NCBI GenBank assembly: GCA_964016885.1
Contig: OZ024750.1
Coordinates: forward strand, 434,001-498,000
Source: Eledone cirrhosa
Taxonomy: Eukaryota
DNA length: 64,000 nucleotides
Reading direction: 5' to 3'
Within the stretch, counting starts at the first letter, position 1. Each line of letters begins with the position of its first letter. The translations under genes and the position numbers were made by a program. A model generated the notes under the pieces. It was not told the origin of the DNA, made no database searches, and was given only the letters and a program-made list of their open reading frames with translations. Below are positions 6,160-63,447 of the stretch, one piece after another.

Positions 6160-8979
6160 AATTTTCCGTCTCCCACCACAATACAGAAATGTGTTTCTTC
6201 TTTTTCTTTTTGTCTAATTCCTAATAAATATTTCCTTTGCAATATTTCCAACAACTGTGATCTTTGTCAATATCTAAAGATGTTGCAAACTCTATTGTAA
6301 TCCAAAGTTAAATAAAATACAAAATTATGATGTAGATATTCCAGATAGAGAACTAGAGAAATGTTGTTTATAATCTCAGTTCAGAAGATATATTTCACAG
6401 TAATTCTACAACAGATTTATATCTGTTGTGTATAACATCTTCTTTTCATCTTCAAAAGTTGATAAATATTGATGATTAAATCTGGTGTAAAAAATTGTTT
6501 CATATCAATGTTACGGGATATGCTGAAATAATAAAGAAACAGTATAAGATATAAAAGATACTTGAAATGTAAAGATTGAGTGGAAATCTCTATATAAATG
6601 TTAGACCTAGAAATATAACTTGGAATCAAAACATCTTAAATTGAACTTGGCAAAGACTAAAGTCCTAGTAAGTAGAAAGGGAAACAAGATCCTAATGCCT
6701 TCAGGGAAATGGCTTTGCTCAGTATACAGAAAAGAAGGTTGAAATTCCATCCTTTGTCGCAAATACAAACTATGGGCACATAAGACATGCAGTGGGATCT
6801 CAGGAGGGCTAGCAAAGAATGTAGGTTTTGATGTGGTCGGTGCACAGGAGCAATAAGAAGTAGGCGTTCACAGGAAACTAACTGTATCAGATGCTCAGTG
6901 TTCTGTAGATGTAGTTGATGGATGTGTAATATACATGATCGGCAAAGTGTAAATGAACTGAGTCACATCTGATACACCTCTCCTGGTCAACCCATGCATA
7001 CAGGCATGGAAAGCTGGACACACTCTCCCACAATGTTTCTTCTTCTTTGATATTATAAAGTGGGTATTAACAAACCTTCCTGGATATACCCTTATTCCAT
7101 TGCTGTACTTACTTTTCGATTGTCAATTTTCGTTTTTATGTGATGCGTGAAGGAACCAACCAACAAACATCTCTTTTATATTATATCATCATCATTTTAC
7201 GTCCGCTTTTCGCTGCTTGCAAGGGTGGGACATTATATATATATATATATATATAATGTATATAAACAATACAATATAATTACCTCATTACCAGAGGTTT
7301 CCCGGATAAGACGAATACAAGAAACGTCCGCATTCGTTCGTCACCCAAGGCAAATTGCCTTGTCTGACGAACGAACCCGTCCTAAAGTTTGTATAATCAA
7401 ACTATGTCCATTGTCTGTGACACCTATAATTACTATGTAATCCAAATGGCATCTAATTTTTATAGATTTAATATAAATATTCATCTACTTACCATATCTT
7501 AATGTAAACAGTCAAAGACATTAATATAGTTGTTAGAATGAGGTTTTCAAATATTTCACCAACTTCATTCAACAGGATTAGCGTCTTAAATCTTTAGCCA
7601 TAGATTCGTATCTTGAAAAGCTGAAGCTAACTTTCAATTTTTAGCCACAGTTTTGATACGGAGTATGTGCGTGTGTAATATTTGCATATGTATATACGTA
7701 TCAATGTATCACACACGTCTCTCTCTCTCTATATATATAAAAACTGGCGAAACTCCAGAGTAACAAGACTCACTATTTAGCCTTGATAAAATGAATATTA
7801 AAACTCAATTCTACTTCGGTATTGAGTACTCTTTTCTCTCAGCCGTCAACCACATACGTGTGTGTGTATATATATATATATATATACACACACACACGTT
7901 ACCACTCTTCTCTCTTGCACACTGCTTCCTCTTATACCGTGTTTTCTCAGTTCATCCATGCTTTGTTGTTTTCGCACATTAACATTGCACATCCATCGAA
8001 GCATACTCTCTAACCTTCGCAGTCACTGTCTCATCACCATACAACATCAGATATTATTGCACACAGGGCTAATACGGTTGGCTTTCCGTAGAGAGAAACC
8101 TTTAATTGTTAACAGAGGGAGTAGTTCCCTGAACTTTTCCATCGTAGCTACTATGCTTATAATACAACCTCCACTTAGGGGTCACGCTCTTAAAAATAAT
8201 TGTTTCTACTTTAGGCACAAGGCCGCAATTATTCCAGTGCATTACTGGTGCTTTATTTTATCGACCCCGTAAGTTAACCTTGGCGGGATTTGAACTCAAA
8301 CAGTAACATAGTCCCTGGAAAGAAACAACACAGTTATTAATAAGAAGGGTTGGAATTAATGCATCACTCCTTCACAGTCAGTCTATGAACTTTTCAGTCG
8401 ATCTCGTAAACAGTCTGAAGTCTGTCTTAAGCCAGATGGCTCATTTGGCCGGTGTTTATCCCGGTTTCATGGCGTAAAGCGACTGGGAGTACAAGACTTC
8501 TCCCTGGACACAACACCTAACCCAGGAATCGAACCTACAACATTACGATCGTAAGTCCATGTACCTCCACCGTAAACAGAGTAGTCATGTTATATACTTA
8601 TATATATAAGATATAAGTTTGATATATAATTTGAATCCATCCCAATATTTACTGGAACTTATTTTAACATCAGAAATACATCAACTTATCAACATATTTA
8701 TCAACATCAGAGATAAAGATTCAAAGCCAAGCCATGTAGACGAAGAGGCCGAAACTAAATGCATTTAAGGCATTTAGCCAAGCACTGTAATTTGATATTA
8801 CACAATAAAAATAGATGAAAGACATGGCTAGCCGCAGTTTCTACTAGTCTATCATCCTCTGATTGATACGATGAAAATCTATTAAACACATAGCTAAATA
8901 AATAAATAAATATAAGCTGTAATTTCAATTCTACAAGTATCTACTTAGTCGATTGATTTGATAAAATAGTTTCAATGGC

Positions 8980-9060
8980 CAAAGGGAGGTAACTCTAGTT
9001 TTTATAGCTAGCGGAAATGATGCAGTACGCATGCGTTTGCCACAGACCATTGTTAGCACC
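8980..9060 (+). promoter_or_regulatory. Candidate JAGN1 promoter, possibly bidirectional
   Basis: An ETS-like GCGGAAAT and an NRF1/EWG-like palindrome ACGCATGCGT lie about 130-150 nt upstream of the JAGN1 ATG. The gene is head-to-head with the ZNF gene. Confidence 0.35.
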
Positions 9061-9163
9061 GTCAGTCATTTTCATCTGCTAAGCAATGTTATAACAAGTT
9101 TCGTGTCTCAATTTTCGAGAGAGAGAAAAAAATACAAACAATTTTTTATATTATTACGCTGCA

Positions 9164-9252
9164 ATGGCGTCAATGAGTGGAAGCCGGCCAGCTGGTTCTG
9201 ATGGAAGTGATTTTTGGCATCGAGAAAGTATCGCGTGGCAACATAAACAAAG
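9164..9252 (+). CDS. JAGN1: Protein jagunal homolog 1, coding exon 1
   Basis: Translates MASMSGSRPAGSDGSDFWHRESIAWQHKQ(S), matching the jagunal GxDGSDFxHRE signature. Ends at the donor AG|GTAATT, phase 2. Not in the ORF track. Confidence 0.93.
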
Positions 9253-59141: not shown

Positions 59142-61950
59142 ATATATATATATATATATATACACATATATATATATATATACACATATATATATATATA
59201 TATACACATATATATATATATATATACACATATATATATATATATATACACATATATATATATACACATACATATATATATATATATATATATATATACA
59301 CACATATATATATATATATATACACATATATATATATATATATATATACACATATATATATATATATATATATATATATATATACACATATATATATATA
59401 TATATATATATATATATACACATATATATATATATATATATATATACACATATATATACACAATATATATATATATATATATATATATATATACACACAT
59501 ATATATATATATATATATATATATATATACACATATATATATATATATACACATATATATATACATATATATATATATATATATACACATATATATACAT
59601 ATATATATACATATATACATATATATATATATATATATACATATATACATATATATATATATATACATATATATATATATATATATACATATATATATAT
59701 ATATATATATACATATATATATATATATACATATATATATATATATATATATATACATATATATATATATATATACATATATATATATATATATACACAT
59801 ATATATATATATATATACACACATATATATATATATATATATATATACATATATATATATATATACACATATATATATATATATACACATATATATATAT
59901 ATATATACATATATATATATATACATATATATATATATATACACATATATATATATATATATACACATATATATATATATATATATATACACATATATAT
60001 ATATATACACATATATATATATATATACATATATATATATACACATATATATATATATATATATATATACACAGATATATATATATATACACATATATAT
60101 ATATATACACATATATATATATATATACACATATATATATATATATATATATATATATATATATATATATATATATACACACATATATATATATATATAC
60201 ATATATATATATATATATATATATATATATATATATATATATATATATATATATATACACACATATATATATATATATACATATATATATATATATATAT
60301 ATATATATATACATATATATACATATATATATATATACATATATATATATATACATATATATATATATACATATATATATATATATATATATATATATAT
60401 ATATATATATATATATATATATATATACATATATATATATATACATATATATATATATATATATATACATATATATACATATATATATATACATATATAT
60501 ATATATACATATATATATATACATATATATATATATACATATATATATATATACATATATATATATATATACATATATATATATATATATATATATATAT
60601 ACATATATATATATATATATATATATATATATATATATATATATACATATATATATATATATATATATATATATACATATATATATATATATACATATAT
60701 ATATATATATATATATATATATATATATACATACATACATATATATATATATATATATATATATATATACATACATACATATATATATATATATATATAT
60801 ATATATATATATATATATATATATACATATATATATATATATATACATATATATATATATACATATATATATATATACATATATATATATATACATATAT
60901 AAATACATATATAAATACATATATATATATATATATATATATATATATATACATATATATATATATATATATATATATACATATATATATACATATATAT
61001 ATATATATATATATATATACATATATATATACATATATATATATATATACATATATATATATATATATACATATATATATATATACATATATATATACAT
61101 ATATATATATATATATATATATACATATATATATATATATATATATATATATATATACACATATATATATATATATATATATATACACACATATATATAT
61201 ATATATATATACACATATATATATATATATATATACACATATATATATATATATATATATATATACACATATATATATATATATATATACACATATATAT
61301 ATATATATATATACACATATATATATATATATATATACACATATATATATATATATATATATATATACATATATATATATATACATATATATATATATAT
61401 ATATACATATATATATATATATATATACATATGTATATATATATATATACATATATAACATATATATATACATATATATATATATATACATATATATATA
61501 CATATATATATATATATACATATATATATACATATATATATATATATATATACATATATATATATATATACATATATATATATATATATTATACATATAT
61601 ATATACATATATATATATATATATATACATATATATATATATACATATATATATACATATATATATTATATACATATATATATATATACATATACATATA
61701 TATATATATATATACATATATATATATATATACATATATATATTATATATATACATATATATATATATATATACATATATATACATATATATATACATAT
61801 ATATATATATATATATACATATATATACATATATATATACATATATATATACATATATATATATATATATATATATACATATACATATACATATATATAT
61901 ATATATATATATATACATATATATTATATATATGTATATATATATATATA
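59142..61950. repeat. About 2.8 kb (TA)n/(TACA) compound microsatellite
   Basis: Directly visible. Confidence 0.97.
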
Positions 61951-62017
61951 CGTTATTCCGGGTTGAATCGGAGGTAACCACAGTAAGTAAGGTACTCAAT
62001 ACATAGCAGAGTATAAC

Positions 62018-62148
62018 AGTTTTAATATAGATGAGATTCTACAGGACTAGAACTGTTTCATTCATTAGAAATCATCAGGAAGATTCCTGATGATTTCTAA
62101 TGAATGAAAACAGTTCTAGTCCTGTAGAATCTCATCTATATTAAAACT
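62018..62148. repeat. 131-bp palindrome containing two outward-facing hammerhead-like cores
   Basis: Arms of about 64 bp around a 2-nt centre (62082-62083). Each arm reads CTGATGA-tttc-taat-gaat-GAAA(a)C outward. Confidence 0.85.
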
Positions 62149-63447
62149 ATATATATATATATATATACATACATATATATACATACATATATATATATAT
62201 ATATATATACATACATAATATATATATATACATACATATTACATACATACATATATATATATACATACATATATATATATATATATATATATATATATAT
62301 ATATATATATACATATATATAATATATACATATATATATATATATATATATATATATATATATATATATATATATATATATACATATATATATATATATA
62401 TACATATATATATATATATACATATATATATATATATATATATACATATATACATATATATATATATATATATATATATACATATATATATATATATATA
62501 TATACATATATATATATATATATATACATATATATATATATATATACATATATATATATATACATATATATATATATATATACATATATATATATATATA
62601 TATATACATATATTATATATATATACATATATATATACATATATACATATATATATATATACATTATATATATATATACATATATATATACATATATACA
62701 TATATATATATATACATATATATATATATATACATATATATATATATACATATATATATATACATATATATATATATACATATATATATATATATATACA
62801 TAAATATACATATATATACATATATATACATATATATATATACATATATATACATATATATATATATATACATATATATATATATATACATATATATACA
62901 TATATATATATATATACATATATATATATATATATACATATATATACATATATATACATATATATATATATATAATACATATATATATATATACATATAT
63001 ATATATACATATATATTATAATAACATATATATACATATATATATATATACATATATATACATATATATACATATACATACATATATATACATATATATA
63101 CATATATATATATACATATATATACATATATATACATATATATATATATACATATATATACATATATATATACATATATATATATATATATACATATATA
63201 CATATAAATATATATACATATATATATATATATATATACATATATATATATATATATACATATATATATATATATATATACATATATATATATATATATA
63301 CATATATATATATATATACATATATATATATATATATACATATATATATATATATATACATATATATATACATATATATATACATATATATATACATATA
63401 TATATATATATATATATACATATATATATATATACATATATATACAT
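62149..63447. repeat. About 1.3 kb (TA)n/(TACA) compound microsatellite
   Basis: Directly visible. Confidence 0.97.

What the first reader, a model, noticed from the sequence alone, without database searches (positions are those of the whole stretch)
7235..63447. Window-wide pattern: unique islands inside (TA)n arrays repeatedly carry hammerhead cores or fold-back palindromes
Seen: several TA-bounded islands hold whole or partial hammerheads or palindromes. They lie at 7333-7375 (CTGACGA in a hairpin), 7749-7770 (3' half GAAACTCcaGAGTA), 12841, 13865 (CTGATGA-AGGGC-ttat-GCCT-GAAAC), 14030-14327, about 34200-34215 (minus CTGAAGAAGGGCTC), 58995 and 62018. Inference: several families of ribozyme-bearing retroelements target or seed TA microsatellites. 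The giant cephalopod TA arrays may therefore be nests of Penelope-like or retrozyme insertions rather than plain slippage products. I am not aware of this being characterised in octopods, but cannot verify novelty.
Basis: inference. Interest (0 to 1): 0.72.

Follow-up and report, generated by a model that had tools for sequence, protein, structure and literature searches.

The report
Penelope retroelement ends in TA repeats
Most of the DNA islands beside these TA repeats are real, multi-copy cut-off tail ends of Penelope-type jumping genes that carry whole or broken, predicted self-cutting RNA motifs and likely land in TA repeats that already exist; this is a known behaviour, and the giant TA tracts themselves likely grew by ordinary slippage.

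Summary
Mostly real, largely known. The islands are not unique: five of six named islands searched genome-wide are high-copy repeats (203-3,513 first-look candidates, up to 100% identical); 34206 is unresolved. Three trace to RT + GIY-YIG ORFs: two Hydra-type Penelope-like elements (12797-13040, 58934-59141) and one Neptune-type (13467-13975). Only 12841 is a complete minimal hammerhead by my descriptor; the others are truncated, mutated, atypical or coreless. In 800 kb sampled at fixed positions, 71 hammerhead hits (0-1 in shuffles) lie near (TA)n (50/71 within 300 bp vs 30% background); in a 380-kb hold-out 41/47 stubs abut TA vs 25/151 for control repeats. Targeting holds; seeding does not: a filled site has 57 nt of TA vs 25-67 at empty sites; arrays >=200 bp are no more often stub-flanked (8/55) than mid-sized ones (149/624); the window's 3.2-kb array holds no island. 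Craig et al. 2021 already list a (TA)n-inserting, hammerhead-bearing Hydra element in Octopus bimaculoides, and this scan noted the same pattern many times elsewhere in this genome. Best lead: a very young 6.5-kb element whose 3' UTR carries its own TA targets.

The parts
7256..7375 (-). Family E stub: tail-less 3' end with whole hammerhead fold (C3 to G in this copy) plus the centre of a truncated fold-back
   Evidence: 939 candidates, head-to-head pairs; intact family core; fold
7745..7858 (+). Family G stub: hammerhead 3' half and tail, 5'-truncated
   Evidence: 4 hits in 3 of 80 sampled stretches; sequence; not searched genome-wide
9597..12795 (.). Giant interrupted (TA)n array with no unique island
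   Evidence: longest non-TA piece 28 nt, itself TATG repeat; TRF one array
12797..13040 (+). Family A (Hydra-type PLE) 3' end with tail; minimal type I hammerhead 12841-12897, palindromic stem III
   Evidence: 910 candidates at 93-98%; descriptor hit; linked to RT and GIY-YIG ORF pieces in L045-L047
13075..13262 (-).
13283..13441 (-).
   Evidence: 24 hits in 12 of 80 stretches, 23 within 100 bp of TA
13467..13975 (+). Family D (Neptune-type PLE) 3' UTR and end; hammerhead core 13865-13889 without cleavage triplet
   Evidence: 3,513 candidates; RT, CX4CxxC linker and GIY-YIG upstream in L039/L197
14034..14453 (+). Family B fold-back plus tail: end of a non-coding about 540-600-nt unit that runs head to tail; no canonical hammerhead found
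   Evidence: 1,065 candidates
34198..34212 (-). Isolated CTGAAGAAGGGCTC next to (CA)n(TA)n; unresolved (decayed Neptune-type half core or chance)
   Evidence: best relatives 71-90% over upstream flank only, none covering the motif; no other copy in fetched loci
58934..59141 (-). Family F (Hydra-type PLE) tail-less stub cut at stem I; complete hammerhead with long stem II and C10.1/A11.1 mismatch
   Evidence: 40 other copies at 100% over 205 nt among rows listed; 6.5-6.9-kb tandem units with ORF; fold
59142..61950 (.). Giant (TA)n array with CA interruptions, no island
   Evidence: longest non-TA piece 14 nt
61951..62147 (-). Family C fold-back: tailed copy (minus) joined at stem I to tail-less inverted copy; U10.1/U11.1 hammerheads; parent ORF not found
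   Evidence: 405 candidates at 93-98%; 9 of 9 other loci TA-bounded on both sides
62148..63433 (.). Continuation of the giant array with the same CA polarity

Best explanation
Most islands are multi-copy, 5'-truncated and often back-to-back 3' ends of several Penelope-like retroelement families (Hydra-type and Neptune-type ORFs shown for three) that abut (TA)n; they likely insert into pre-existing TA repeats, their hammerheads are predicted to cut only weakly or as dimers, and the kilobase TA arrays likely grew by slippage. Inferred steps: the GIY-YIG endonuclease cuts in (TA)n; the RT primes on the element RNA at two fixed sites, one at the tail end and one 65-135 nt upstream, one from each target strand; both copies usually stop early, often at the base of hammerhead stem I, and are joined head to head, giving a palindrome with a tail on one arm and TA on both sides. 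The A/T-rich ends recreate TA targets, so stubs pile up locally.
For: High copy number and TA-bounded ends. Links to RT + C-terminal GIY-YIG ORFs. One tailed and one tail-less end in opposite orientation in 10 of 10 family F stretches fetched around inverted pairs. 71 descriptor hits vs 1, 0, 0 in shuffles; 33 of 43 thinned events within 300 bp of TA, p 2e-10; hold-out 12 of 14 hits, and 41/47 stubs vs 25/151 control repeats abut TA. In tandem F units the tail runs into ATAAT, not a TA repeat, so terminal TA is target-derived. Filled site 32+25 nt TA vs 25-67 nt at empty sites. No rise of stub flanking with array length. Architecture matches PMC8557442 passages.
Against: No parent ORF found for families B, C, E, G, I, V. 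B has no canonical hammerhead. The stub library is incomplete, so the 20% of TA blocks with a stub flank is a lower bound; only 12 blocks >=500 bp were sampled and 4 had a stub flank. Both giant arrays in this window do have a stub at one or both edges. Pfam did not recognise the Hydra-type ORFs; clade placement rests on motifs, not a tree. One fold-back in the window (35182-35900) is single-copy. The empty/filled comparison is one site.
Confidence: 0.85

Rival explanations
1. The elements create or greatly lengthen the TA arrays: insertion adds TA (telomerase-like or repair synthesis) or elements carry TA as cargo, so giant arrays are retroelement products.
For: Family F 3' UTR holds 18-20 TA tracts (352-440 nt) per unit. 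Blocks with a stub flank are slightly longer (median 38.5 vs 28). The 5'-truncated ends of stubs A and F abut the window's two giant arrays directly; 4 of 12 blocks >=500 bp have a stub flank.
Against: Filled vs empty site shows no gain. 8/55 blocks >=200 bp vs 149/624 of 20-199 bp are stub-flanked, p 0.13 in the opposite direction. Only 1 of 6 F insertions in 1.18 Mb reaches the TA-rich UTR, under 1% of the 69 kb of TA blocks in that sample. Same CA polarity on both sides of stub C suggests the array came first.
Confidence: 0.1
2. Some islands (B, C, E) are ends of small non-autonomous units (retrozyme-like or SINE-like RNAs) mobilised in trans by the PLE enzymes rather than pieces of coding elements. 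This is a refinement, compatible with the best explanation for A, D, F.
For: B reads through its tail into its own start (2 of 15 strict matches; also L190, L193) and has no ORF. Family C cores in the unbiased sample never extend far upstream of stem I. A 310-bp x 11 hammerhead tandem exists in L104.
Against: F shows that a coding element gives the same stem-I-truncated stubs (5 of 6 insertions short), so a missing parent in small samples is expected. B lacks a recognisable ribozyme.
Confidence: 0.45
3. The motifs are chance words or assembly artefacts in unstable AT-rich DNA.
For: Bare CTGANGA is not TA-enriched; 34206 is unresolved; Rfam finds nothing; the single-copy inverted duplication at 35182-35900.
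Against: Hundreds to thousands of dispersed copies with family-specific paired stems; 71 vs 0-1 hits; family F also present in contigs of public runs.
Confidence: 0.03

Closest known systems
Hydra clade of Penelope-like elements, incl. Hydra-1_Obim (Craig et al. 2021, PMC8557442; passages, section 11, supplement rows)
   Same: C-terminal GIY-YIG, DKT, CxCX5C linker, CxxC and CxH, hammerhead near the 3' end, (TA)n insertion, inverted 5'-truncated copy and tail at one end; listed for an octopus
   Different: Family F is 6.5-6.9 kb (Hydra described as generally <3 kb) with a 3.7-kb microsatellite-rich 3' UTR, RWR for RWK, tails of about 65-135 nt (30-40 described), and a hammerhead with about 110-nt stem II
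Neptune clade PLEs (as described in PMC8557442 passages)
   Same: RT, CX2-5CxxC linker, GIY-YIG, microsatellite bias, minimal hammerhead with an extra base 5' of stem II (family D)
   Different: Stem I is poor in all 13 D cores seen and 5 of 13 end GAAACGCC without the triplet; no inverted copies among 12 loci
Minimal hammerheads of metazoan PLEs (Cervera and de la Pena 2014, PMC4209133; parts 1-2 of 4 read)
   Same: Type I, short palindromic stem III, mostly solitary or close and opposite-strand copies, predicted to work as dimers with low activity
   Different: 24 of 85 descriptor hits here have a mismatch at 10.1-11.1 (17 U/U, 4 C/A), against the conserved G10.1-C11.1; a U/U base is also reported for an axolotl motif (PMC7229834 passage)
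Metazoan non-LTR retrozymes (PMC7229834 passages; bioRxiv 10.64898/2026.07.22.740005 part 1 of 5)
   Same: Non-coding units tied to PLEs; L104 array and head-to-tail family B resemble them
   Different: No tandem hammerhead array in this window; B has no canonical core; no RNA evidence

Membership tests
Hydra-clade PLE (families A, F) | Single ORF with RT and C-terminal GIY-YIG endonuclease | tested here: met
   F: open 654-aa stretch with YRDD and YIG motifs, N-terminal 164 aa in another frame in these units; A: ORF pieces in the same order; A vs F EN 42% identity. Pfam gave no hit
Hydra-clade PLE (families A, F) | RWK and DKT motifs | tested here: met
   F has RWR (variant) and DKT; A copies are 5'-truncated, not testable
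Hydra-clade PLE (families A, F) | CxCX5C linker, CxxC and CxH in EN | tested here: met
   Both families
Hydra-clade PLE (families A, F) | Hammerhead at the 3' repeat and insertion in (TA)n | tested here: met
Hydra-clade PLE (families A, F) | Generally under 3 kb | tested here: not met
   F units 6,468-6,897 bp; a described tendency, not a strict criterion
Hydra-clade PLE (families A, F) | Phylogenetic placement with reference Hydra RTs | not tested
   No tree with references was built
Neptune-clade PLE (family D) | RT with DKG, CX2-5CxxC linker, C-terminal GIY-YIG | tested here: met
   Frameshifted pieces upstream of the D end in L197
EN+ PLE insertion (families B, C, E, G, I, V) | Contiguous RT-EN ORF | tested here: inconclusive
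   None found in loci fetched; architecture and tail motif match A and F
Minimal type I hammerhead | CUGANGA, stem II, GAAA, palindromic stem III, NUH, stem I | tested here: met
   Met at 12841; complete but atypical at 59135; not met at 7364, 7749, 13865, 14030, 34206; defective at 62018
Minimal type I hammerhead | Self-cleavage | not testable with these tools
   Needs an in vitro assay; the monomer minimum-energy folds are not the active geometry
Non-LTR retrozyme | Tandem 150-450-nt units each with a type I hammerhead | tested here: not met
   Not in the window; B is head-to-tail without core; met only for L104 elsewhere
Non-LTR retrozyme | Expressed circular RNA | not testable with these tools

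The most novel reading that the evidence does not exclude
A still-active Hydra-type element (family F) carries about 20 TA tracts in its 3' UTR, so each long insertion plants new landing sites that other families then use (one nested fold-back seen); summed over many families and long times, this feedback built much of this genome's TA microsatellite load, and the stem-I base marks the RNA 5' end or an RT stop that sets stub length.
Probability: 0.12. Interest if true: 0.62.

Novelty: new member of a known kind. Interest (0 to 1): 0.3.

Why it matters
It is mostly an annotation result: stubs of this kind cover at least 3.6% of the sampled DNA (28.5 of 800 kb) and minimal hammerheads occur at about 70 per Mb, missed by Rfam, so this genome is a rich natural library for studying how Penelope-like elements insert, which PMC8557442 names as open. 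A young family with identical copies and tandem full-length units is a ready candidate for an in vitro system. The bolder claim, that giant TA arrays are insertion nests, did not survive.

Tried and rejected
Rfam at gathering score on the window: 0 hits; at E<=1 on four loci only miRNA-like hairpin noise, no ribozyme. Pfam missed the Hydra-type ORFs. RNA search for family F: no RNA holder listed. Contig depth on F steps up over the hammerhead and tail in X1 and X4; contig depth is a poor measure, used as a hint only. Sequence upstream of family C in L084 proved to be another young family, not C's parent. A decayed-looking core at 9342-9348 matched only TA-like sequence. The idea that the 2.8-kb array is inside family F was rejected: 9 of 9 other copies have unique 3' UTR there. 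The 35182-35900 palindrome is single-copy. A paper on dimer-cleaving PLE hammerhead variants (recalled) was not held; a recalled PMC id was a different paper; nothing from it is used. Earlier-finding look-ups by sequence for B and F returned nothing.
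Full report
Setting. The window is G000:C10:434001-498000 of a 3.0-Gb genome. It holds 41 TA blocks, two of them giant: 9597-12795 and 59142-63433.

Observation. All eight named motifs are at the stated places. A type I minimal-hammerhead descriptor that I wrote finds one hit in the window, 12850-12888, with a 9-bp stem I and a self-complementary stem III. The 58995 site is the 3' half of a whole minus-strand hammerhead with a long stem II (z -5.1) and a C/A mismatch at its base, which the descriptor misses. 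At 7333-7375 the hairpin is the centre of a broken fold-back; the whole fold is on the minus strand with C3 mutated. 7749 is a 3' half; 13865 lacks the cleavage triplet and stem I; 14030-14327 is a 96.8% palindrome without a core; 62018 has a slightly defective core on each strand; 34206 could not be tied to a family. Rfam finds none of them.

The islands are repeats. First-look candidates (lower bounds, 40 scored each): A 910, B 1,065, C 405, D 3,513, E 939, F 203; the 34198 flank gave 66 weak ones. G, I and V were checked only against the 80 sampled stretches. Top hits are ranked by likeness to the window copy, so their structure is a biased sample: 10 of 11 other A loci end in TA, 9 of 9 other C loci have TA on both sides.

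Parents. A: L045 shows an inverted tailed end, then RT and GIY-YIG pieces, a 1.75-kb 3' UTR and a tail-less end; L047 has the tail on the other arm. F: a tandem array on C1 has 6.5-6.9-kb units with an open 654-aa RT-EN stretch, RWR and DKT motifs in the N-terminal part, which is in another frame in these units, and a CxCX5C linker; these are the Hydra features in section 11 of PMC8557442. D: L197 has RT, a CX4CxxC linker and GIY-YIG upstream, the Neptune pattern. No ORF was found for B, C, E, G, I, V; A, B, C, E and F share a CTC word a few bases after the tail-less end and most a GAGYRC word further on, a lead taken from note e1-10355400. B is a non-coding unit of about 540-600 nt that can run head to tail and has no canonical core.

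Enrichment test. In 80 stretches of 10 kb at fixed positions the descriptor gave 71 hits against 1, 0 and 0 in three block-wise dinucleotide shuffles; 36 of 71 lay within 150 bp and 50 of 71 within 300 bp of (TA)6+, against 18.9% and 29.5% for random positions; no rows were dropped, so 11 tandem copies and 4 probable false hits count against the effect; bare CTGANGA words (652) showed no enrichment. Thinned by hand to 43 events, 33 were within 300 bp (p 2e-10). A library of ends covered 162 segments (28.5 kb), 125 abutting TA, against 40 of 170 for three control interspersed repeats; because that library came from the same DNA I repeated it on 38 new stretches: 41 of 47 vs 25 of 151, and 12 of 14 descriptor hits within 300 bp vs 31%.

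Target or seed. In tandem F units the tail continues into ATAAT, not TA repeat, so terminal TA is not encoded. One TA tract inside the F 3' UTR is filled by a foreign fold-back stub in one row (32 + 25 nt of TA) and empty in 20 rows, about 15 distinct copies, with 25-67 nt: insertion into existing TA without gain. Over 1.18 Mb, 1,176 TA blocks had a stub flank in 65/497 (10-19 bp), 87/342, 42/194, 20/88, 4/43 (200-499) and 4/12 (>=500); 8/55 vs 149/624, p 0.13. The library is incomplete and long blocks are few. In the window the 3.2-kb and 2.8-kb tracts contain no non-repeat piece over 28 nt and have strand-biased interruptions, the same on both sides of stub C. Against this reading: both giant arrays have a stub at an edge, flanked blocks are a little longer, and F carries 18-20 TA tracts per unit; but only 1 of 6 F insertions in the sample reaches that region. 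Real nests are clusters such as 12797-14453, five stubs between short TA runs.

Mechanism. Shown: fixed alternative 3' ends, one tailed and one tail-less end in opposite orientation in 10 of 10 F stretches fetched around inverted pairs; 5' breakpoints close to the base of stem I in the family C cores of the unbiased sample (12 rows), in E and in several F copies, but not in A. Inferred: cutting in (TA)n, two primed cDNAs, early stop, head-to-head joining (wording follows notes e1-10309337 and e1-9561305). Ribozyme activity is untested; PMC4209133 (parts 1-2 of 4 read) reports low, dimer-dependent cleavage for such motifs and already mentions close opposite-strand pairs.

Prior knowledge. PMC8557442 (passages, section 11, supplement rows) describes inverted truncated copies, one-sided tails, (TA)n bias, and lists Hydra-1_Obim with (TA)n preference and an annotated hammerhead, plus two octopus Naiads. 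PMC13282606 (passages) counts Penelope-like families in Octopus vulgaris and has no mention of ribozymes in the main text. PMC7229834 (passages) and bioRxiv 10.64898/2026.07.22.740005 (part 1 of 5; its supplements were not seen) cover retrozymes. Searches listed no paper that quantifies this load in an octopod or tests the origin of its TA arrays; the library omits most subscription papers. This scan has noted the same pattern many times in this genome.

Verdict. Real, multi-family, ordinary for Penelope-like elements; the giant-array claim is not supported. New members of a known kind, interest 0.3.

Noticed in passing
window 35182-35430 / 35652-35900: 99% identical 249-bp inverted duplication of single-copy DNA around a SINE-like repeat and TA run; a fold-back that is not a PLE family
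   Followed up: partly
L157-L159 (G000:C1:126.83-126.86 Mb): Tandem array of four 6.5-6.9-kb family F units plus an inverted copy; 3' UTR about 25% TA/TG microsatellite; two units carry a nested fold-back stub
   Followed up: yes
L104:251-3381: Eleven 310-bp tandem units each with a hammerhead, ending at TA and an assembly gap; retrozyme-like
   Followed up: partly
L187-L196; window 14034-14453: Family B behaves as a head-to-tail non-coding unit with PLE-type ends but no canonical hammerhead; a variant ribozyme is not excluded
   Followed up: partly
118 sampled stretches: 24 of 85 hammerhead hits have a mismatch at the base of stem II (17 U/U, of mixed families, 4 C/A)
   Followed up: partly
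L178-L186: Another very young TA-bounded family (2,961 candidates, 99-100% identical), with about 990-bp tandem spacing at some loci
   Followed up: no
window 27947-28546 (+): Single-exon Jagunal-family ORF (Pfam PF07086)
   Followed up: no
window 47896-49992 (+): Broken PIF1-helicase ORFs, Helitron-like (Pfam PF05970)
   Followed up: no
window 3616-6213 (-): 865-aa tandem C2H2 zinc-finger ORF
   Followed up: no
window 9240-9350 (-): CTGATGA with possible remnant stem I and II, 3' core lost; no family found
   Followed up: partly
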